Positions 6,374 to 44,649 of a stretch of DNA of 51,759 bases are shown one piece after another. This stretch comes from Escherichia phage vB_EcoD_Fulano1: the sequence record OL539459.1. The stretch is one strand, 5' to 3'. A program made the position numbers and the translations under genes. The stretch's first letter is position 1, and each line of letters starts with the position of its first letter. The notes below the pieces were generated by a model, which was not told the DNA's origin, did not search any database, and saw only the letters and a list, made by a program, of their open reading frames with translations.

Positions 6374-6392
6374 CACAAAATTATGTTGCACG

Positions 6393-6410
6393 TTTAACAA
6401 AAAATGCTAT
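6393..6410 (-). promoter_or_regulatory. recurrent element (reverse orientation) TTTAACAAAAAATGCTAT
   Basis: upstream of major capsid gene but antisense to it. Confidence 0.3.
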
Positions 6411-10152: not shown

Positions 10153-10171
10153 TTTTAACAAAAAGTGCTAT
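10153..10171 (-). promoter_or_regulatory. recurrent element (reverse orientation) TTTTAACAAAAAGTGCTAT
   Basis: between major-tail terminator and chaperone RBS; antisense to flanking genes. Confidence 0.3.
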
Positions 10172-21360: not shown

Positions 21361-21388
21361 TTGACTAAACGCATCAAATAGCTACAAT
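21361..21388 (+). promoter_or_regulatory. sigma70-like promoter TTGACT-16-TACAAT for recombination operon
   Basis: TTGACT 21361-21366, TACAAT 21383-21388, about 30 nt before ATG 21418. Confidence 0.55.
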
Positions 21389-22479: not shown

Positions 22480-22560
22480 ACAGCACAAATAGCTAAACAA
22501 ATGAAAAATGCGGTGTTATAATTCACCGCATAAGTTAACAACAAGCGTAAGGAAATAAAC

Positions 22561-27996: not shown

Positions 27997-28929
27997 TTAG
28001 AGAAGTGATTCAGGCTTGTAAACCTTTCTCTCCATCCCTTGCCTGTAATTATCATTAATCGGCATCATAATTTCAAGTCCTCTTTCCTCTGCGGCAATGA
28101 TCGAGTCACGGTCTGTACTCTTACAGACAACTCTCATTCTTCTGTTTCCCTTATACCTGTAAGCCACAATCTCAATGTTAGTTGCATCAAAGCAGGCCCA
28201 AACCTCTTGACCAGTTGCAAGGTGAATATGTTGCGCATCAATCCAGTCAACGCAAAGATAGATCGTCTTATCGGTGCTTCCTGTTCTCACAACCGACCCG
28301 CGCGTGTAGTCCTTTGCGAGAAAAGACTGTTTACCATCTTCATCAATGAAAAGCACATTGCACATTTCATCATCAATATCATCGGAATGCACCAGGTAAC
28401 ATGGTAACGCGTGAATGTATCGACCATCTTTAACGCCGCATTCATAATAACCATTTTCAGGAGGATATATCCCTTCATAGGTGCTTAACGGCGTGCGATC
28501 AAATTTTAGTGTTTTTGACATAACGCGCTCGCAGCATTCATGGCTTGCCTGCTTCCCAAACGAATAACCAGAATCACGAGATACTCTCTTATTTGCCTTG
28601 ATCCTATAGTCCTGCGGAACTTTTCCAAGAAAGCGGCCCAAAATATTGATCACTTCGCTGTAAGGTTCTCCGGTTAGCTTCATGATCCAACCAATTCCAG
28701 TATCGTTTCCGCACACATTGCAGATAGCGCCGCCGTCGCCTTTTTTATCTCCAAGTTTATCAGTCCATCTAAAGCGATCCTTTCCGCCGCAGTGGGGGCA
28801 AGATTGATGCTTGCCGTTAAAAACTTCATTTGGAAGACCACAAATACTTTGTAGCGCCTCACGCCATAATCCCTGCATATATGGGAGAACATCTTCCTTT
28901 TGATAAACCATAAAGTTTTCGTTATTCAT
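27997..28929 (-). CDS. putative DNA primase (zinc-ribbon containing)
   Basis: trimmed to ATG 28929 behind GAGGTG; Cys cluster CPHCGGKDRFRW...CNVCG; acidic stretch HSDDIDDE. Confidence 0.45.
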   Translation of the reverse strand: MNNENFMVYQKEDVLPYMQGLWREALQSICGLPNEVFNGKHQSCPHCGGKDRFRWTDKLGDKKGDGGAICNVCGNDTGIGWIMKLTGEPYSEVINILGRFLGKVPQDYRIKANKRVSRDSGYSFGKQASHECCERVMSKTLKFDRTPLSTYEGIYPPENGYYECGVKDGRYIHALPCYLVHSDDIDDEMCNVLFIDEDGKQSFLAKDYTRGSVVRTGSTDKTIYLCVDWIDAQHIHLATGQEVWACFDATNIEIVAYRYKGNRRMRVVCKSTDRDSIIAAEERGLEIMMPINDNYRQGMERKVYKPESLL

Positions 28930-28984
28930 ATACACCTCAAACAAAAAAGCCTGACAGATGATAACATCATGCCAGGCATTGTTT

Positions 28985-29458
28985 TTAGCAATTAGTGCTT
29001 TCAGGTTTATACAGGAATCCGCCAGGTTCATAATCTGACATTCTTACCACTCGCAACATTTCACGCTTATCACATCTCTTTGTGAGCGGTTTGCCATTGG
29101 AATCAAATCGCAGGTCTGGACGACAGAATGATGCGCGATAGCCTTGACATCCATATTTTTTGTAATCGTTATGCACCTTTTGAGCGCCAGCGGCTGAAAT
29201 CATACCACGAACGCGCCACTGATTTACAGTTTGCTGGCTAACGTTAAGACGTTTTGCCATTGCTGACACGCTTCCGTAATACTCAATAAGGATGTCAAGT
29301 CGCGCTTTTAGTCCGGCGCGCACTTCATCTTTTAAAACATAGTATCCCGTAGGGCGCTTGCGCTTCTTCTTGTCCTTGCCTCTTCGAGTTCCGTTATTGC
29401 CATTAATTGTGCGCTTGTCAATCTTTCCTGTTGATACTGCGATTCGTTGCTCTTTCAT
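28985..29458 (-). CDS. HTH DNA-binding protein (putative regulator)
   Basis: 157 aa; basic N-terminus RRGKDKKKRKRP; helix-turn-helix-like MAKRLNVSQQTVNQWR; divergent from helicase gene. Confidence 0.5.
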   Translation of the reverse strand: MKEQRIAVSTGKIDKRTINGNNGTRRGKDKKKRKRPTGYYVLKDEVRAGLKARLDILIEYYGSVSAMAKRLNVSQQTVNQWRVRGMISAAGAQKVHNDYKKYGCQGYRASFCRPDLRFDSNGKPLTKRCDKREMLRVVRMSDYEPGGFLYKPESTNC

Positions 29459-29471
29459 TATTCATTCTCCA

Positions 29472-29518
29472 ATAGCATTTTTTGTTAAACGATGATTTAA
29501 TGATTGTGTATTATACAC
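29472..29518 (+). promoter_or_regulatory. helicase promoter region: recurrent element plus 13-bp palindrome GTGTATTATACAC
   Basis: ATAGCATTTTTTGTTAAAC 29472-29490; perfect palindrome 29506-29518 overlapping -10-like TATTAT. Confidence 0.45.
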
Positions 29519-29547
29519 GCCAAATGGCATTACTCAAAGGTTTTAGA

Positions 29548-31593
29548 ATGATTCCAAACATTGAAAAGCAAATATCAGCACTTGGTGAAGCGGTAATTAA
29601 ATCCATTCAGGAGCGATTCACTGTTGGAGAGATTGTGCCTTACCCTTACCAGTGCGTTGCATACGCTGAGATCGCAAAGCGTATGAAAAATTATGAGCAT
29701 CCATTCTTTGTTAAAGCGTCGGTATCGGCTGGCAAAACATTGATGTTTGCAATGGTTGCTCACCAGTGCCGTAAAATGGGCTTGAAAATGATGGTCCTTG
29801 CTCGCCAGGCTGAGATTGTGGATCAGGATTCTGAAGAGATAACAAATCTTGGCGTGCCGAACTCTATCTATTGTGCAGGACTGAAGACAAAAAGCGCATA
29901 CTTTCCGATCGTTGTTGGTTCTGAGGGAACTGTAGTTAATGGACTGTTTAAAGCGCTTGGCGACTATGTTCCGCACGTTATCGGGATTGACGAGTGTCAC
30001 CAGGTGGATTGGGAAGACCTTGCCGACGCAATAGAGAAAGACGAATCATTTTTACAAATGACGACGAAGAAAGGCGAAAAAGTACCAAATCCAGATTATG
30101 ACATAACAAAGGGAAGCAGGAACAGAAATACAGAGTTCCTGATTGGTGAGGATGGCTTGCCAATGGAGGGAACAGGCCGCACACAATACACTGTCATTAT
30201 CATGGAAATGATGCGACGTTGCAGGAAAGCATATGGCCATGAACTGCGCATATTTGGCATGACTGGATCGGAGTTTCGCGGTGTAGTCCCAATACTGGTA
30301 GAAGATAAAAAGCAGAAAGGATTTTGGCGTGAACAGGTTACTAATATTGACACCAACTACCTGATCAAGTTCGGTTCTGTTGTTCCGACTAATTTTGGCG
30401 ACGTTGGCGATCTCGGGTATGACCTTTCAGAGTTTGAGGCATCAAGCGAGGATGGCGTTGCAGACTTTGACGCTAAAACGCTTCGTAGGATGGAACAAAA
30501 AATTCATGAAGAAGCGACCATGACAAAGCGCATCATGGCGAAAGTGCACGAGATCTGTAAAAACCGTAACGGTGTACTTGTGACATGTGCAGGCGAAAGG
30601 CACTGTAAAGAGGCAGCGGCAGCATTGCCACCTGGAACGACTTACAGGATCATTACTGGTAAGACTGGAGATAACCAGCGAAAGGAGTGGTTGAAAGAAG
30701 CATACGAGGGGAAGGTTAAATACATCTTCCAGGTGCAGGCGCTAACTACTGGCGTTAACGTGCCGTTTTGGGATACGTCTGTTATTCTGCGTAAGATTGG
30801 ATCTCTTACGTTGCTGATTCAGCTTTTAGGGCGCGGAATGCGACTACTTAAGAAGTGGCATAAGGAGCAAGGATTCCAGAAAGATGATCATCTCGTCATG
30901 GATTTTTCAGGAACGATGGACGAGCTAGGGGAGCTTTATTTTGATCCGATACTGGAACAGGCGCAGCATCAGAAGCGATTCAGAAATGGTAAAGATCCGA
31001 AGCCTTGTCCTGTTTGCGGAACTCTTAACAGCTATTATGCTCGTCGTTGTATGCACGTAGACGAAAACGGCAACAGATGCGAGTGGTTCTTTAAATTCAG
31101 GACATGTGATGATCAGATTGACCCGCGCACTAAAAAGATTATTCATCGCGGTTGCGGAACGAAGAATGATATTGCGGCCAGGGTATGCAGACATTGCGAC
31201 ATGTCATTGATTGACCCCAACGAGAAGTTAAGCGGAAAGCACTACACAAAAAACGACTGGTTCCAAGTGCAATCTTTCGCGGTTAACATGACGAAAAACC
31301 AGAAAGGGATAATATTTAATTATGAGCTTTCCGATGGCATAGATACTTTCAAGGCGAGAGAGATATTTTTCCCTGAATCTGAAAGCCAAATTTGTCGCGC
31401 AAAATGGCGAAGCGTTGCTCTTAAGCACATACCAGATCGCCGTGTCGCTGGCATGGTCGCGAGCTATCGTAATGCACGAAAAATAATGCAGTATGTGAAT
31501 CACATTATGCCACCATCGCGCGTTACTCACCGCAAGACTAGCAAGGGCGAAGATAATTTGTACAAGAAGGAATTTAATTATGGCAATGACTGA
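29548..31593 (+). CDS. SF2 DNA helicase (DEAH-like)
   Basis: Walker A SVSAGKT, motif II GIDECHQV, C-terminal Cys clusters; start ATG 29548 (RBS AAAGG) chosen, ATG 29524 possible. Confidence 0.7.
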   Translation: MIPNIEKQISALGEAVIKSIQERFTVGEIVPYPYQCVAYAEIAKRMKNYEHPFFVKASVSAGKTLMFAMVAHQCRKMGLKMMVLARQAEIVDQDSEEITNLGVPNSIYCAGLKTKSAYFPIVVGSEGTVVNGLFKALGDYVPHVIGIDECHQVDWEDLADAIEKDESFLQMTTKKGEKVPNPDYDITKGSRNRNTEFLIGEDGLPMEGTGRTQYTVIIMEMMRRCRKAYGHELRIFGMTGSEFRGVVPILVEDKKQKGFWREQVTNIDTNYLIKFGSVVPTNFGDVGDLGYDLSEFEASSEDGVADFDAKTLRRMEQKIHEEATMTKRIMAKVHEICKNRNGVLVTCAGERHCKEAAAALPPGTTYRIITGKTGDNQRKEWLKEAYEGKVKYIFQVQALTTGVNVPFWDTSVILRKIGSLTLLIQLLGRGMRLLKKWHKEQGFQKDDHLVMDFSGTMDELGELYFDPILEQAQHQKRFRNGKDPKPCPVCGTLNSYYARRCMHVDENGNRCEWFFKFRTCDDQIDPRTKKIIHRGCGTKNDIAARVCRHCDMSLIDPNEKLSGKHYTKNDWFQVQSFAVNMTKNQKGIIFNYELSDGIDTFKAREIFFPESESQICRAKWRSVALKHIPDRRVAGMVASYRNARKIMQYVNHIMPPSRVTHRKTSKGEDNLYKKEFNYGND

Positions 31594-32779: not shown

Positions 32780-33037
32780 ATGCAGAAAGAAAGAAGAGTT
32801 TTACTTAATGAAGATGGCGAATTTCTTTTGTATCGCGCTATGGTATGCGATGCAATTGATAAAAACCCTAACGTGAAAAAGATGATTGATTGCGATCCGT
32901 GGGAATTTTCAAGCGCATTAGATATGAGCTTTGAGGAGACAAAAAAACTCCCGCTTGAAAAATGGCACGAACAAATCAGAAATGACATGCAAGAATTTGT
33001 CGATTCTTGGAATTTTCAGAACGGAATGATCCACTAA
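32780..33037 (+). CDS. hypothetical protein
   Basis: ORF track 32432..33037 trimmed to ATG 32780 to remove overlap with dam. Confidence 0.4.
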   Translation: MQKERRVLLNEDGEFLLYRAMVCDAIDKNPNVKKMIDCDPWEFSSALDMSFEETKKLPLEKWHEQIRNDMQEFVDSWNFQNGMIH

Positions 33038-33056
33038 TAGCACTTTTTGTTAAAAC
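33037..33056 (+). promoter_or_regulatory. recurrent element ATAGCACTTTTTGTTAAAAC
   Basis: directly after stop TAA 33035-33037; hairpin 33057-33075 then CATAAT 33075-33080. Confidence 0.45.
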
Positions 33057-33112
33057 GCCCGGCCTTGTGTCGGGCATAATTATTTCATCAAAACGAACAA
33101 GAGGAAAACAAA

Positions 33113-33292
33113 ATGGTTGTTTACGATCCACGCGCTTTTAAAATTGCTCAAGAAGTTTCACGCGAATCTGTTGCTGGCGGTTCGGTTAACGGCTATCAGT
33201 TTGATTGGTCGGCAGCAATGACCTTGCTTAAGGTTGCATATGGTCACGCGCCAATTGAAACAGCGGAGGAATATTATAAGCATGAAGGTTGA
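33113..33292 (+). CDS. hypothetical small protein
   Basis: 59 aa ORF not in track; RBS AAGAGGA; downstream of recurrent element plus hairpin. Confidence 0.3.
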   Translation: MVVYDPRAFKIAQEVSRESVAGGSVNGYQFDWSAAMTLLKVAYGHAPIETAEEYYKHEG

Positions 33293-33524
33293 ACAAGGTA
33301 GGCAGGCTGTATGGGATCACGCAAAGGAATGCGGGATCGCAGAAGACATATCCAGGATAGCGGAATATTTTGATATTGCTGACATAAGCATTATCAGCGG
33401 CGACAAAATGACATTTCTCAATGAACGCCCGCGCAAGATGCATCGCGTCCCAGCAATACCAACAAAGATTGATTTCAAAGAGGCTATGGCGAAAATTCGC
33501 GAGCCGCGAAAATACTACAAATGA
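33282..33524 (+). CDS. hypothetical protein
   Basis: ORF track 33234..33524 trimmed to ATG 33282 behind GGAGG. Confidence 0.35.
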   Translation: MKVEQGRQAVWDHAKECGIAEDISRIAEYFDIADISIISGDKMTFLNERPRKMHRVPAIPTKIDFKEAMAKIREPRKYYK

Positions 33525-40006: not shown

Positions 40007-40062
40007 CGTTTATTTCTCCTTTCGTTTCGGTGAAGTGATTATGCCAGGCTTTTACACCTGGC

Positions 40063-42975: not shown

Positions 42976-43212
42976 TTATTCCGATCGCGCTTTAACAAAA
43001 AGTGCTATTTGCTGACTGGTCATTATTCCATCTATTCCATTAATCAGGAATAACAGGAATAATTCATTCGCGATCACCTGGATTGTGAGACTTTGAGTTT
43101 GATCAATTTTAATCAGTTGATTAACTTTTTGTGTGGAGGGGATAGAGAAACGCGGCCCTCTTGCGTCCTTTCCAGCAATCCTGGCGCGCGCATCTGTTAT
43201 TTCTGTTCCCAA
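42976..43212 (-). CDS. questionable ORF (may be non-coding leader)
   Basis: 78 aa; contains dyad repeat 43022-43063 and recurrent element 42991-43008. Confidence 0.2.
   Translation of the reverse strand: MGTEITDARARIAGKDARGPRFSIPSTQKVNQLIKIDQTQSLTIQVIANELFLLFLINGIDGIMTSQQIALFVKARSE
42991..43008 (-). promoter_or_regulatory. recurrent element ATAGCACTTTTTGTTAAA
   Basis: ~70 nt upstream of ATG 42927; not at a stop codon here. Confidence 0.35.
43022..43063. repeat. dyad-symmetric element with ATTCC/GGAAT half-sites
   Basis: ATTATTCC (43022-43029), ATTCC (43034-43038), centre ATTAAT, GGAAT (43047-43051), GGAATAAT (43056-43063). Confidence 0.5.
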
Positions 43213-43549
43213 TGTTATCTCAAATAAGCCTCCGCACTTTTAGATAACAGAAACGGCGTTCATCAACAAAAAGAACAAAATAAAATTTATATATATACCC
43301 ATAAAATCAATAAGTTAGTTATATATGTATTTATATTTGTTATTTACTGTTATGCTTGTTCTGTGGGTATGTGGTGGGTGTTGATGATTCCTTCATTTAA
43401 CATTTGTACTTTTTATGCGGTTATATATATAGATTTTGCGGCATTATCGAGACAACCAGTGAACGAGATTGAACGAGCTTTAAAATCAATCACTTGCGCG
43501 CAATTTTGTTATCGCGTCAAAAAAAGATGTTATTAGAACGAAAAATCAG

Positions 43550-43578
43550 TTGACTACCTGGCTGTGAGTATTGATAAT
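43550..43578 (+). promoter_or_regulatory. sigma70-like promoter TTGACT-17-GATAAT for rightward early operon
   Basis: TTGACT 43550-43555, GATAAT 43573-43578, 33 nt before ATG 43611. Confidence 0.55.
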
Positions 43579-43610
43579 GCACGCAGACAAAACGAAAAGG
43601 GAGACAGCAC

Positions 43611-43910
43611 ATGACAAAAATGCTTGCAATAAACCGAAAACTTGAAGTGAAAGAGATGTCACAAGATGATATTGATGATTTGGCGCGCGGCATGACAACA
43701 GGTTACATGCGGAGAATTGTCAATCACTTGATTAACTCTGAACGAAATAAGGCCGTATACATCAGCATAAATCACGCTGGAGGGAATGCTGCATCAATGC
43801 GACAGATGATTAACAACGTGGCAAAAGAGTTAAATGTTGATGTTAAGACGTTTGTTGTTGATGGATTCCTGGGCCTGGTAATACTTGAAGTTAACGAAGC
43901 GTTTGCATAA
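43611..43910 (+). CDS. hypothetical early protein
   Basis: 99 aa, first gene behind TTGACT-17-GATAAT promoter, RBS AAGGGAG. Confidence 0.4.
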   Translation: MTKMLAINRKLEVKEMSQDDIDDLARGMTTGYMRRIVNHLINSERNKAVYISINHAGGNAASMRQMINNVAKELNVDVKTFVVDGFLGLVILEVNEAFA

Positions 43911-43921
43911 GGAGTAAGAGA

Positions 43922-44383
43922 ATGGAGCAAGAATTTATTAACCGCGCGGCATTTTGCGACACGTTGCGAGATATTGGAAGGGCTATCGGTAGCGGTGAGC
44001 GAGAAACCGTATTTATGCCTGAAATCTACCTGAGAAGTCGAGTTGAGGGGGGCGACGCAATTACAGCATCGTACATGCGCCAGGTGGTCAACCGTGTGCC
44101 AGAAGTAAAGCAAAAAGGCGTGATCAGCATTAAGCGAAAGGTGACTGATGAGGGTGATGGCTTTGTGTTTACGCTCACTGAAGCCAAAAGCAAGCCTCGC
44201 GTGCTGACTGGAGACGATATAGCGAAACTTGAAATCAAGTGGCGAGCAAAGTTTATTGCTCAACTTCTGAAAACCCAGCCGAGAATCAGCGACCTGGAAG
44301 GCGAGCGCCTGGAGGGTGCGGCAATCGCACTTGAGAGAATGAATGAAATGCTCAACGAGATGGTAAAGGTGGGGGATGAATAG
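43922..44383 (+). CDS. hypothetical protein
   Basis: 153 aa, RBS AAGGAG. Confidence 0.4.
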   Translation: MEQEFINRAAFCDTLRDIGRAIGSGERETVFMPEIYLRSRVEGGDAITASYMRQVVNRVPEVKQKGVISIKRKVTDEGDGFVFTLTEAKSKPRVLTGDDIAKLEIKWRAKFIAQLLKTQPRISDLEGERLEGAAIALERMNEMLNEMVKVGDE

Positions 44384-44649
44384 TGAATAAGGCATTAATT
44401 GGAGTTTTGATTGCAATTGCTACCCTGACCGGATGCGAAAAGGCATCTGAATCAACGGTAGTCGTAGGCGTGGAGTCAGATTTTAAAGTCGGTCGCCTGT
44501 TTACTGTTGATGGATGCACTGCGTACCGATTCTATGATAACGGTCACGCGATCTATTACACCAACTGCAAGGGCACGACTAGCTGGGAAGTGTCGAAAAG
44601 CAACGGCAAGGTAACGACAACAGAACATATGACAGTGGAGACAAAATAG
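44383..44649 (+). CDS. lipoprotein (signal peptide near-identical to Cor-like gene)
   Basis: GTG start overlapping previous stop; MNKALIGVLIAIATLTGC lipobox. Confidence 0.5.
   Translation: MNKALIGVLIAIATLTGCEKASESTVVVGVESDFKVGRLFTVDGCTAYRFYDNGHAIYYTNCKGTTSWEVSKSNGKVTTTEHMTVETK

What the first reader, a model, noticed from the sequence alone, without database searches (positions are those of the whole stretch)
29459..29547. Divergent regulator/helicase intergenic region with a recurrent-element copy and a perfect 13-bp palindrome
Between the leftward HTH gene (start 29458) and the helicase gene lie ATAGCATTTTTTGTTAAAC (29472-29490), direct repeats GATGATTT/AATGATTG, and GTGTATTATACAC (29506-29518) overlapping the -10-like TATTAT. 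This is the classic layout of an autoregulated divergent promoter, with the adjacent HTH protein as the likely ligand.
Basis: partly seen in the sequence, partly recalled or inferred. Interest (0 to 1): 0.45.

Follow-up and report, generated by a model that had tools for sequence, protein, structure and literature searches.

The report
Two-way promoter between phage replication genes
This 89-base gap in a T1-like coliphage looks like an ordinary, very compact two-way promoter whose "perfect palindrome" is mostly two back-to-back -10 boxes, while its recurrent element is the already described but still unexplained 21-base repeat of T1-like phages, which here behaves as the upstream half of the phage's main promoter type.

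Summary
The window is a Hanrivervirus (T1-like, Drexlerviridae).

**The palindrome is no more than chance.** There are 15 such 6+1+6 palindromes in the window, against about 15.6 expected. All 13 bases are found only in Hanrivervirus. In T1, TLS and others only TATnATA survives. That core is two overlapping -10 hexamers, TATTAT rightward and TATAAT leftward. This is the "18-bp class" of bacterial bidirectional promoters.

**The recurrent element is already described.** It is the 21-nt direct repeat (DR) reported for TLS, T1 and Rtp, whose function is unknown.
- The window holds 18 copies.
- 17 of the 18 have a -10-like hexamer 18-19 nt downstream, as do 208 of 222 distinct copies from relatives.
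- A C(-1)A(+1) start context follows.
- The DR is therefore centred near -41/-42, where a -35 box is missing.

**Proposed layout.** A DR-type promoter drives the helicase gene. A sigma70-type promoter (TTGAGT-16-TATAAT, the equivalent of TLS P57) drives the Cro-like gene. That gene has its own terminator.

Autoregulation through the palindrome is not supported. Whether the Cro-like protein binds the DR is open; its recognition helix is its least conserved part.

The parts
28985..29458 (-). Gene for a 157-aa Cro-like HTH protein, ortholog of the TLS protein made from promoter P57 (the gene between primase and helicase; gp57 in the paper, locus tag PTLS_gp58 in RefSeq). The N-terminal basic arm and the C-terminal FCRPDLRFD region are conserved; the recognition helix is variable.
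   Evidence: ORF, family hits, annotation in relatives; AF2 pLDDT 86, Cro fold; conservation profile.
29467..29470 (-). Shine-Dalgarno GGAG of the HTH gene, 8 nt before its ATG, directly abutting the 5' end of the repeat.
   Evidence: Read from the sequence; the same juxtaposition is seen in all orthologs.
29470..29490 (+). Copy of the T1-family 21-nt direct repeat (caATAGCATTTTTTGTTAAAC). It spans about -51 to -31 of the inferred helicase promoter and takes the place of a -35 box.
   Evidence: 18 copies in the window; the TLS paper and its table; consensus aaATAGCACnnnTTGnTAAAA; present at this position in every Drexlerviridae ortholog examined.
29491..29508 (+). 18-nt spacer between the repeat and the -10. 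Its length is conserved (18-19 nt) but its sequence is not.
29509..29514 (+). Rightward -10 hexamer TATTAT of the helicase promoter.
   Evidence: a -10-like hexamer 18/19 nt after the repeat in 17/18 window copies and 208/222 distinct copies; it is TATTAT in 15 of the 16 ortholog regions (TATGAT in TLS).
29510..29515 (-). Leftward -10 hexamer TATAAT (perfect consensus) of the HTH-gene promoter. It overlaps the rightward hexamer by 5 bp, so that positions 2 and 6 of the two hexamers pair.
   Evidence: corresponds to TLS promoter P57; the geometry matches the 18-bp class of bidirectional promoters.
29506..29518 (.). 13-bp palindrome GTGTAT-T-ATACAC, made of the bidirectional -10 core TATTATA plus lineage-specific flanks.
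29532..29537 (-). Leftward -35 hexamer TTGAGT (4/6), 16-nt spacer. It overlaps the helicase ribosome-binding region.
   Evidence: homologous to TTGACT in TLS P57, TTGAAT in T1 and TTGTCA in Webervirus.
29521..29522 (+). Predicted start of the helicase transcript (7-8 nt after the -10). Inferred, not measured.
   Evidence: Family logo C(-1) 80% / A(+1) 75% at exactly this distance.
29503..29504 (-). Predicted start of the HTH transcript. Inferred. About 18 bp from the rightward start, which places the repeat at about +14 to +33 of this transcript.
   Evidence: Distance from the leftward -10; class geometry.
29537..29540 (+). Shine-Dalgarno AAGG of the helicase gene.
   Evidence: TCAAAGG is conserved in orthologs.
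29548..31593 (+). Superfamily-2 DNA helicase gene.
28983..29001 (-). Degenerate repeat copy AAAGCACTAATTGCTAAAA overlapping the last codons and the stop codon of the HTH gene. Upstream half of the primase promoter.
   Evidence: same arrangement in T1 and TLS (TLS DR10).
28943..28977 (-). Terminator hairpin GCCUGGCA...UGUCAGGC plus U6 that ends the HTH transcript. The -10 TATCAT (28958-28963) of the primase promoter lies in its loop, 19 nt after the repeat.
   Evidence: -24 kcal/mol, z -3.7; equals T57 in TLS.
27997..28929 (-). DNA primase gene.

Best explanation
The 89-bp gap is a compact bidirectional promoter shared by two replication-module transcription units.

**Leftward.** A sigma70-type promoter (TTGAGT-16 nt-TATAAT) that host RNA polymerase should use unaided makes a monocistronic mRNA for a Cro-like protein. 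That mRNA ends at its own hairpin terminator.

**Rightward.** The helicase operon is driven by a member of the phage's main promoter class: the 21-nt T1-family repeat, an 18-19 nt spacer of free sequence, a -10 hexamer, and a start 7 nt further on. The repeat is centred near -41/-42, where a -35 box is missing. That is the position from which class II activators work.

**How the two interact.** The two -10 hexamers overlap by 5 bp on opposite strands, so only one polymerase can occupy the site at a time. Whatever strengthens the repeat-dependent rightward promoter should therefore lower expression of the Cro-like gene.

**The palindrome.** The 13-bp palindrome is the symmetric -10 core TATTATA plus flanks that happen to match in this genus. 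It is not a separate operator.

**Shown versus inferred.** Shown by comparison: the fixed geometry, the conservation pattern, and the family membership of the repeat. Inferred: the start sites, promoter activity, polymerase competition, and what reads the repeat.
For: **Identity of the phage and of the repeat**
- The window is 99% identical to Hanrivervirus herni.
- The element matches the published TLS/T1/Rtp repeat consensus. That repeat is described as intergenic, co-oriented with genes, about 76 nt before start codons, and of unknown function.
- Here the distance from the first base of the 19-mer to the helicase ATG is 76 nt.

**Fixed geometry of the repeat promoters**
- 17 of 18 window copies and 208 of 222 distinct copies from all fetched relatives have a -10-like hexamer exactly 18 or 19 nt after the repeat. 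No other offset exceeds 39.
- The aligned logo shows G-14 at 75%, G-13 at 69%, TAtaAT, C-1 at 80% and A+1 at 75%. The last two were not used for selection.

**Orthologs of this intergenic region**
- The 16 ortholog regions compared keep the repeat, an 18-19 nt spacer of variable sequence, and the two overlapping hexamers; 15 read TATTAT (+) / TATAAT (-) and TLS reads TATGAT / TATCAT. The more distant L049, Vc1 and HCF1 keep the layout with a repeat degenerate at its 5' end and weaker hexamers.

**The leftward promoter**
- It is one of only three correctly oriented near-consensus sigma70 promoters in intergenic DNA that are not themselves repeat promoters.
- The three coincide with the only three sigma70-like intergenic promoters the TLS authors found: P01, P51 and P57.

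**Known parallels**
- The hexamer overlap (positions 2 and 6 pairing) is the most common configuration of E. coli bidirectional promoters, with starts 18 bp apart.
- At such promoters an activator placed at -40.5 turns on one direction and shuts the other through polymerase competition.

**Other support**
- There is a strong terminator after the HTH gene.
- Intergenic sites are 3-5 times less variable than the flanking coding sites within the genus.
Against: - No transcription start or RNA-seq data for any T1-like phage were found, so all promoter assignments rest on sequence patterns.
- The rightward promoter has T rather than G at -14 and C at the modal +1, so it is not the best member of its class.
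- The leftward -35 is only 4/6 here, and 3/6 in some genera.
- The distant myophage DIBBI has a different layout in the same gap: no repeat, and TTGACT-18-CAGAAT instead.
- The extra palindrome flanks are kept in three lineages (arms of 5-6), so a function for them cannot be excluded.
Confidence: 0.7

Rival explanations
1. The 13-bp palindrome is the operator of the adjacent HTH protein, which binds it as a dimer over the -10 and autoregulates the divergent promoters.
For: - A Cro-fold protein is encoded next door.
- The palindrome covers both -10 hexamers, a position from which a repressor would block both directions.
- Arms of 5-6 persist in Hanrivervirus, Webervirus and L045.
- The recognition helix varies between lineages, as expected if operators were lineage-specific.
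Against: - The palindrome is no more than chance.
- It is a single copy.
- It decays to the bare TATnATA in T1, TLS and several other genera that keep the protein.
- The left flank GTG recurs at other repeat promoters in the window (20973, 10153, 6392).
- G at -13 is a class feature on either strand, which accounts for the inner flank bases without an operator.
- A 13-bp site with half-site centres about 7 bp apart is short for a Cro dimer (established knowledge of Cro/CI operators).
Confidence: 0.1
2. The Cro-like protein is the reader of the 21-nt repeat. Made early from its own sigma70 promoter, it binds the repeat at about 18 promoters from a class II position and activates them. At its own locus the same event shuts off its gene.
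For: - It is the only recognisable DNA-binding regulator in the genome.
- Its gene is insulated by its own host-type promoter and its own terminator, and is flanked on both sides by repeat promoters.
- The repeat is centred at -41/-42 and replaces a -35 box.
- In most Drexlerviridae copies the repeat reads as an imperfect dyad, TAGCA-N5-TG(C/T)TA, with the variable bases at its centre.
- The protein and the repeat promoters occur together even in the myophage DIBBI, whose tail genes have no match in the window.
Against: - The recognition helix (residues 75-84) is the least conserved part of the protein across 43 homologs, and it differs in Vc1 and DIBBI. The repeat core TAGCAC-N3-TTG is invariant in all of them.
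- In DIBBI the right 'half-site' is not conserved, which weakens the dyad reading.
- Two other immediate-early proteins of unknown function (99 aa, and 153 aa DUF7174) are equally available as candidates.
Confidence: 0.2
3. The repeat is read by host RNA polymerase alone, as an UP-element/-35-like composite. The region is then a pair of constitutive promoters with no phage regulator involved.
For: - The repeat is invariant across phages of Escherichia, Klebsiella, Vibrio and Xanthomonas, whose polymerase sigma70 and alpha are highly conserved.
- It contains TTG and A/T tracts.
- TTAAAA at an 18-19 nt spacing scores 4/6 as a -35 (picks up two repeat promoters this way).
- G-14 suggests a partial extended -10.
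- The TLS authors list UP elements as one option.
Against: - TTG lies 22 nt from the -10, outside the working range of sigma70 spacers (established knowledge).
- The invariant G/C positions (TAGCAC) are unlike UP elements.
- Several promoter predictors used by the TLS authors did not call these sites.
- One copy (6392) is conserved without a usable -10 and in antisense orientation, which suggests a binding site with a role beyond polymerase recruitment.
Confidence: 0.3
4. The gap between primase/HTH and helicase is the replication origin. The HTH protein would be an origin-binding protein, and the palindrome would provide DnaA-like boxes.
For: - It sits inside the replication module.
- The helicase | HTH-primase arrangement is conserved even in the myophage DIBBI.
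- The palindrome gives two overlapping 8/9 matches to TTWTNCACA (read from the sequence).
- The region is AT-rich.
Against: - There are no perfect DnaA boxes and no iterons. About 0.1 such 8/9 matches are expected by chance in the region (my calculation), and the two matches are not independent of each other or of the -10 core.
- The boxes are not conserved in T1 or Vc1.
- The TLS authors found no origin-like repeats.
- Promoter features explain all conserved positions.
Confidence: 0.05

Closest known systems
21-nt direct repeats of phage TLS, also noted in T1, Rtp and Rogue1 (German, Kropinski, Misra et al. 2024, PMC11447400)
   Same: - Same sequence family.
- Same count (18 intergenic copies).
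- Same orientation rule and the same distance (about 76 nt) to start codons.
- TLS DR11 and promoter P57 are the direct orthologs of the two promoters in this gap. TLS DR10/T57 are the orthologs of the cassette after the HTH gene.
   Different: - The paper leaves the function open (stoperator, enhancer site or UP element) and does not report a fixed-distance -10.
- Here the repeat is shown by comparison to sit 18-19 nt before a -10 and a C/A start context.
- Two copies in this genome are antisense within the structural genes.
Bacterial bidirectional promoters with overlapping -10 elements, 18-bp class (Warman, Grainger et al.; bioRxiv 10.1101/2020.01.31.928960; NAR 2026, PMC12825309)
   Same: - Two -10 hexamers on opposite strands, with positions 2 and 6 pairing.
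- Predicted starts about 18 bp apart.
- mRNAs in both directions.
- One side is expected to be activator-dependent, so that activation represses the other side by polymerase competition. This resembles acrA/acrR, where a regulator gene sits on one side.
   Different: - No start-site data exist here.
- The rightward arm uses a phage-specific upstream element instead of a -35 box.
- The arrangement is conserved across the Drexlerviridae relatives examined rather than being incidental.
Class II activator-dependent promoters (CRP at -41.5, lambda cI at PRM, Mu Mor at Pm)
   Same: A conserved site centred near -41/-42 overlaps the place of a missing -35 box and is paired with a good -10.
   Different: The activator is unidentified and may not exist. 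The site is only an imperfect dyad, and in DIBBI only its 5' half is invariant.
Lambdoid Cro/CI operator-promoter regions
   Same: A Cro-fold protein is encoded beside divergent promoters, and there is a dyad over a -10.
   Different: There is a single, non-conserved, statistically unremarkable dyad with no operator array. The phage is virulent. The protein carries conserved N- and C-terminal extensions absent from Cro.
T4-type PeSL/PmSL composite terminator-promoter cassettes (Arbiol 2010, PMC2839356; Comeau 2014, PMC4122927)
   Same: Short conserved intergenic motifs combine a stem-loop with a promoter and are repeated between small non-structural genes. 11 of 18 repeat promoters here have a strong hairpin in the spacer or around the -10.
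   Different: The hairpin lies between the upstream element and the -10, or around the -10, rather than beside a canonical sigma70 promoter. The copy in the studied gap has no such GC hairpin. A role in gene shuffling was not tested.

Membership tests
T1-family 21-nt direct repeat (TLS DR) | Match to consensus aaATAGCACnnnTTGnTAAAA | tested here: met
   caATAGCATtttTTGtTAAAC at 29470-29490. It deviates at C7->T and the last A->C, and the 19-mer is identical to that of TLS DR7.
T1-family 21-nt direct repeat (TLS DR) | Intergenic, pointing in the direction of transcription of the next gene, about 76 nt before its start codon | tested here: met
   It lies on the + strand upstream of the + strand helicase gene, 76 nt from the 19-mer start to the ATG at 29548.
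T1-family 21-nt direct repeat (TLS DR) | Many copies per genome (18 intergenic in TLS) | tested here: met
   18 copies in the window.
Bidirectional promoter, 18-bp class | -10 hexamers on opposite strands arranged so that positions 2 and 6 pair | tested here: met
   TATTAT at 29509-14 (+) and TATAAT at 29515-10 (-). Conserved in orthologs.
Bidirectional promoter, 18-bp class | Divergent transcription starts mapped about 18 bp apart | not testable with these tools
   No start-site data were found. The predicted starts are 29521/2 and 29503/4.
Cro/CI-type autoregulated operator | Cro/CI-fold HTH protein encoded next to the site | tested here: met
Cro/CI-type autoregulated operator | Dyad operator conserved, or co-varying with the protein, in relatives, and beyond chance | tested here: not met
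   Arm length falls to 3 in T1, TLS and others. Shuffle tests give p = 0.54 for the window; only T1 shows a significant, different, inverted repeat.
Cro/CI-type autoregulated operator | Several related operator copies | tested here: not met
   No second copy at up to 2 mismatches beyond chance.
Cro/CI-type autoregulated operator | Protein binds the site | not testable with these tools
   Needs EMSA or footprinting.
Class II activator-dependent promoter | Conserved site centred near -41.5 with a weak or absent -35 | tested here: met
   Geometry derived from the fixed -10 and the C/A start context. The hexamers at the -35 position score 3/6.
Class II activator-dependent promoter | Identified activator that contacts polymerase | not testable with these tools
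   The candidate Cro-like protein has a non-conserved recognition helix.
Replication origin with DnaA boxes or iterons | Clustered consensus DnaA boxes or iterons, conserved in relatives | tested here: not met
   There are only two overlapping 8/9 matches inside the palindrome, and they are absent in T1 and Vc1. No iterons were seen.
sigma54 promoter (TGGCAC-N5-TTGCW) | GG and GC elements 11 nt apart, and no -10 hexamer | tested here: not met
   The repeat reads TAGCAC-N3-TTGC, which is 2 nt too short and has AG in place of GG. It is followed by a fixed -10.

The most novel reading that the evidence does not exclude
The 21-nt repeat is the operator of a phage-encoded factor, possibly the Cro-like protein acting through its invariant N- and C-terminal regions rather than its helix 3. 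That factor would switch on about 18 promoters from a class II position. This particular gap would then be the master toggle. The factor's gene fires first from a host-type promoter. The factor's own action at the abutting repeat then hands the shared -10 to the helicase direction and silences the gene. That would give T1-like phages a one-protein early-to-middle switch, and would answer what the repeats are for.
Probability: 0.2. Interest if true: 0.6.

Novelty: new member of a known kind. Interest (0 to 1): 0.3.

Why it matters
On its own the locus is an ordinary compact divergent promoter, and its palindrome can be set aside. Its value is as a test bed. T1-like phages are very common coliphages and fermentation contaminants, yet how they time their gene expression is unknown. 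The TLS authors explicitly list the function of the 21-base repeats as an open question. The comparison made here turns that question into a concrete, cheap experiment: are these repeats the -35 substitutes of the phage's main promoters, and who reads them? This 89-bp fragment carries a repeat promoter, a host-type promoter and the start of the only candidate regulator gene, so it is the natural template for that experiment.

Tried and rejected
**Literature.** Searches for start-site or RNA-seq data on T1-like phages found nothing usable.

**Rfam.** No family matches anywhere in the window.

**Recurrence of the palindrome or of AAATGGCATT.** AAATGGCATT is a conserved 10-mer just downstream of the -10. 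Neither it nor the palindrome recurs beyond chance.

**Lineage-specific palindromic operators in each ortholog.** A fair shuffle test gives p of 0.12 to 0.97 for all orthologs except T1. I rejected this as a general feature.

**The repeat as a true dyad (TAGCA-N5-TGCTA).**
- This was attractive in Drexlerviridae but is weakened by DIBBI, where only TAGCAC-N3-TTG is invariant.
- The chance of such a 5-bp dyad in a 19-mer is roughly 3% (my estimate).
- The G-C/G-T alternation at one arm position would also fit an RNA hairpin, but the fixed distance to the -10 argues for a DNA-level role.

**The Cro-like protein reading the repeat through its recognition helix.** This is disfavoured by the conservation profile.

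**Fold searches for the protein's C-terminal extension.** No match beyond the Cro core. NCBIfam gave only a sub-threshold HTH domain hit.

**Other readers of the repeat, considered by eye or by rule.**
- IHF and Fis consensus: no match.
- MerR-type spacer activation: the spacers differ in sequence between promoters.
- sigma54: spacing is wrong by 2 nt and a -10 is present.
- Cruciform shortening of the spacer: the resulting geometry does not work.

**Other conserved small proteins shared with DIBBI** (window 32780-33040 and 33282-33524). No family hits.

Full report
**What the window is.** A megablast of 28900-29700 finds 60 phage records covering at least 80% of the query (62 records at 95% identity or more). 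The best is Escherichia phage herni at 99.4%, a Hanrivervirus in Drexlerviridae, i.e. a T1-like virulent siphophage. Mapping the annotated genes of the close relative KarlJaspers onto the window gives primase 27997-28929 (-), a 'putative transcriptional regulator' 28985-29458 (-), and DNA helicase 29548-31593 (+). The studied gap is therefore the turning point between a leftward unit (regulator, primase) and a rightward unit (helicase, VRR-NUC, Dam and onwards).

**Checking the observation.** The 19-mer has 12 copies at up to 3 mismatches, against 0.06 expected. The palindrome GTGTAT-T-ATACAC is perfect but unremarkable:
- The window contains 15 perfect 6+1+6 palindromes, and composition-matched simulations give 15.6 +/- 4.0.
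- It has no relative elsewhere in the window.
- An inverted repeat at least this long appears in 54% of shuffles of the same 89 nt.

The ATGATT duplication is real but lies in a stretch whose sequence is free in other genera.

**The recurrent element is already in the literature.** A 2024 re-annotation of phage TLS describes a 21-nt direct repeat, aaATAGCACnnnTTGnTAAAA. It has 18 intergenic copies, all pointing in the direction of transcription, about 76 nt before start codons, and it is also present in T1, Rtp and Rogue1. The authors call its function unknown. They mention stoperators, enhancer sites and UP elements as possibilities, list it among open questions, and found only three sigma70-like intergenic promoters: P01, P51 and P57. 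Their supplementary table places DR11 and P57 in the TLS equivalent of this very gap, and places DR10 and terminator T57 just after the regulator gene.

**What the repeat does, judged by comparison.** Searching the window with the family consensus gives 18 good copies.
- In 17 of them a -10-like hexamer (at least 4/6, with A2 and T6) begins 18 or 19 nt after the repeat.
- Across 222 distinct repeat units collected from 44 IMG/VR relatives, T1, TLS and the window, 208 have it at 18/19 nt. No other offset exceeds 39.
- Aligning on the hexamer shows G-14 (75%), G-13 (69%) and TAtaAT. C at -1 (80%) and A at +1 (75%) occur exactly 7 nt after the hexamer, and these two were not used for selection. 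An A-rich leader resembling ATCGAAACGAAC follows.
- The spacer has a fixed length but a free sequence.

This is the signature of a promoter. The repeat spans about -52 to -32 (centre -41/-42). Its TTG lies 22 nt from the -10, too far to serve as a normal -35. It therefore occupies the position of a class II activator site, or is an unusual polymerase-contact element.

**The gap itself, across relatives.** I extracted the orthologous region from 44 viral contigs, T1, TLS, Vibrio phage Vc1, Citrobacter phage HCF1 and an unnamed contig. All Drexlerviridae show the same layout:
- the regulator's start codon;
- its Shine-Dalgarno sequence abutting (in some, overlapping) the 5' end of the repeat;
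- an 18-19 nt spacer of unrelated sequence;
- then TATTAT on the helicase strand (TATGAT in TLS, TATCAT in Vc1).

One base to the right, the opposite strand reads TATAAT (TATCAT in TLS). A -35-like hexamer lies 16-17 nt further on that strand: TTGAGT here, TTGACT in TLS, TTGAAT in T1, TTGTCA in Webervirus, and weaker matches elsewhere.

The palindrome arms measure 6 only in Hanrivervirus, 5 in Webervirus and L045, and 4 in L010. They measure 3, which is simply TATnATA, in T1, TLS, L007, L011 and L013-16. The left flank GTG is shared with T1 and TLS but not Webervirus. The right flank CAC is shared with Webervirus but not T1 or TLS. The full palindrome therefore arises where two independently varying flanks coincide. 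In TLS the central base differs (G), which changes position 4 of both hexamers, the least critical position. That is what a double -10 constraint predicts.

**Relation to known bidirectional promoters.** In E. coli, 19% of mapped starts belong to divergent pairs. The commonest spacing is 18 bp, produced by -10 elements on opposite strands whose positions 2 and 6 pair. The hexamers at 29509-14 (+) and 29515-10 (-) have exactly that register. The predicted starts are about 29521/2 and 29503/4. A follow-up study shows that such promoters accept only one polymerase at a time. It also shows that an activator at -60.5 or -40.5 on one side represses the other side through competition, for example at acrA/acrR, where a regulator gene sits on one arm.

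**The leftward promoter is special in this genome.** A scan for at least 10/12 matches with a good -10 finds nine intergenic sites. Three are just repeat promoters or lie beside one, and three lie in stretches I did not annotate. The three correctly oriented remainder are at 21383 (+, before the exonuclease gene), 29515 (-, this one) and 43573 (+, before three small genes). These are the equivalents of TLS P51, P57 and P01.

The regulator transcript is also insulated at its 3' end. A degenerate repeat (28983-29001, -) overlaps the stop codon. It is followed after 19 nt by TATCAT, which lies in the loop of a strong hairpin with a U6 tail (-24 kcal/mol, z -3.7). Incoming transcripts should therefore terminate, while primase transcripts start inside the 3' arm. 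T1 and TLS have the same construction.

**The protein.** The 157-aa product hits YdaS and P22_Cro just below Pfam thresholds, and hits phrog_2856 strongly. It is present in 830 phage records, essentially all Drexlerviridae. An AlphaFold model built from 43 homologs (pLDDT 86) has a four-helix core, residues 44-101, whose best structural matches are Xfaso-1 Cro, N15 Cro and P22 Cro. The C-terminal 45 residues match nothing.

The conservation profile is unexpected for a sequence-specific regulator of an invariant site. The HTH helices (64-84) are the most variable part. An N-terminal basic arm (DKRTxNGNNGTRRGxDKKxRKR) and a C-terminal motif (G[YF]RAxFCRPDLxFDxNGK) are nearly invariant.

**A distant relative.** Xanthomonas myophage DIBBI has tail genes with no match in the window, yet it carries the same helicase | HTH-primase module. 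It also has at least seven repeat-type promoters: TAGCACTTTTTG..., 19 nt with a GC hairpin, then TAATAT, TATTAT or TATAAT.
- Its HTH homolog lacks the basic arm and has a different helix 3.
- Only the 5' half of the repeat is invariant there.
- Its own helicase/HTH gap has no repeat.

Co-occurrence of the protein and the repeat beyond Drexlerviridae is compatible with a functional link. The invariance of the site against a changing recognition helix argues against the simplest version of that link.

**Conclusion.** The best-supported reading is a bidirectional promoter whose rightward arm belongs to the repeat-promoter class and whose leftward arm is a host-type promoter for a Cro-like protein. 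The palindrome is a by-product. Autoregulation is plausible only in the indirect sense that activation of the rightward arm must compete with the leftward one. Direct binding of the protein to the palindrome is not supported, and binding to the repeat is possible but unproven. The locus is a new member of known kinds. Its interest lies in being the obvious template for finding out what reads the T1-family repeats.

Noticed in passing
window 6392-6410 (-) and 10153-10171 (-): Two repeat copies lie antisense inside the + strand structural module, just before the major capsid gene (6457) and the tape-measure chaperone gene (10185). The 6392 copy is the only one of the 18 without a usable -10. It is identical to the copy in the studied gap and to TLS DR7, which is likewise antisense beside terminator T35. 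These could be roadblocks or antisense promoters.
   Followed up: partly
window 28943-29001 (-): Composite cassette at the end of the HTH gene. A repeat overlaps the stop codon, followed by a strong terminator hairpin with the primase -10 (TATCAT) in its loop. The same arrangement is conserved in T1 and TLS.
   Followed up: yes
window, repeat promoters at 22480, 28983, 31996, 33037, 39144, 40063, 42114, 45639, 47053, 48370, 49718: 11 of 18 repeat promoters carry a strong GC-rich hairpin (z <= -3), either filling the spacer or straddling the -10, so that the U-rich -10 follows the stem. This looks like combined terminator-promoter cassettes, comparable to T4 PeSL/PmSL motifs.
   Followed up: partly
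window, about +1 to +20 of most repeat promoters (e.g. 40020-40040, 33087-33105): A conserved A-rich leader resembling ATCGAAACGAAC...AGGAG follows the predicted start. It is also present in the helicase leaders of other genera and in DIBBI. Its function is unknown.
   Followed up: no
window 43190-44649: A 420-bp AT-rich gap is followed by a host-type promoter (TTGACT 43550-55, GATAAT 43573-78, equivalent to TLS P01). It drives three small ORFs: 99 aa, 153 aa (DUF7174) and an 88-aa lipoprotein-like product. The first two share a T-x-x-YMR-x-(I/V)VN motif and are alternative candidates for an early regulator.
   Followed up: partly
L053 (Xanthomonas phage DIBBI, NC_017981) 32053, 34943, 36790, 40945, 42965, 43934, 45706: A myophage of another genus, infecting another host, has T1-type repeat promoters and the T1-type replication module. 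Its HTH homolog is probably annotated too short; the ORF extends upstream to MSVIGYTTK.
   Followed up: partly
L048 (phage T1) helicase/HTH gap: T1 has a 9-bp inverted repeat, AACGTTTAC...GTAAACGTT, flanking the shared -10 at a distance of 20 nt. It is the only ortholog whose inverted repeat beats shuffles (p about 0.01).
   Followed up: no
window 29505-29519: The palindrome gives two overlapping 8/9 matches to the DnaA box TTWTNCACA, one on each strand. They are not conserved in T1 or Vc1 and are probably incidental.
   Followed up: partly
window 28985-29458 (protein): In the Cro-like protein the recognition helix is the least conserved segment. A low-confidence (probably disordered) basic N-terminal arm and a C-terminal FCRPDLRFD motif are nearly invariant, which hints at a conserved partner other than a variable operator.
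   Followed up: partly
public records matching window 28900-29700: 19 GenBank records named 'Campylobacter phage' (host C. jejuni; unannotated where listed) match this coliphage genus, and those listed are about 97% identical. The host was probably misattributed, or a coliphage was carried over.
   Followed up: no
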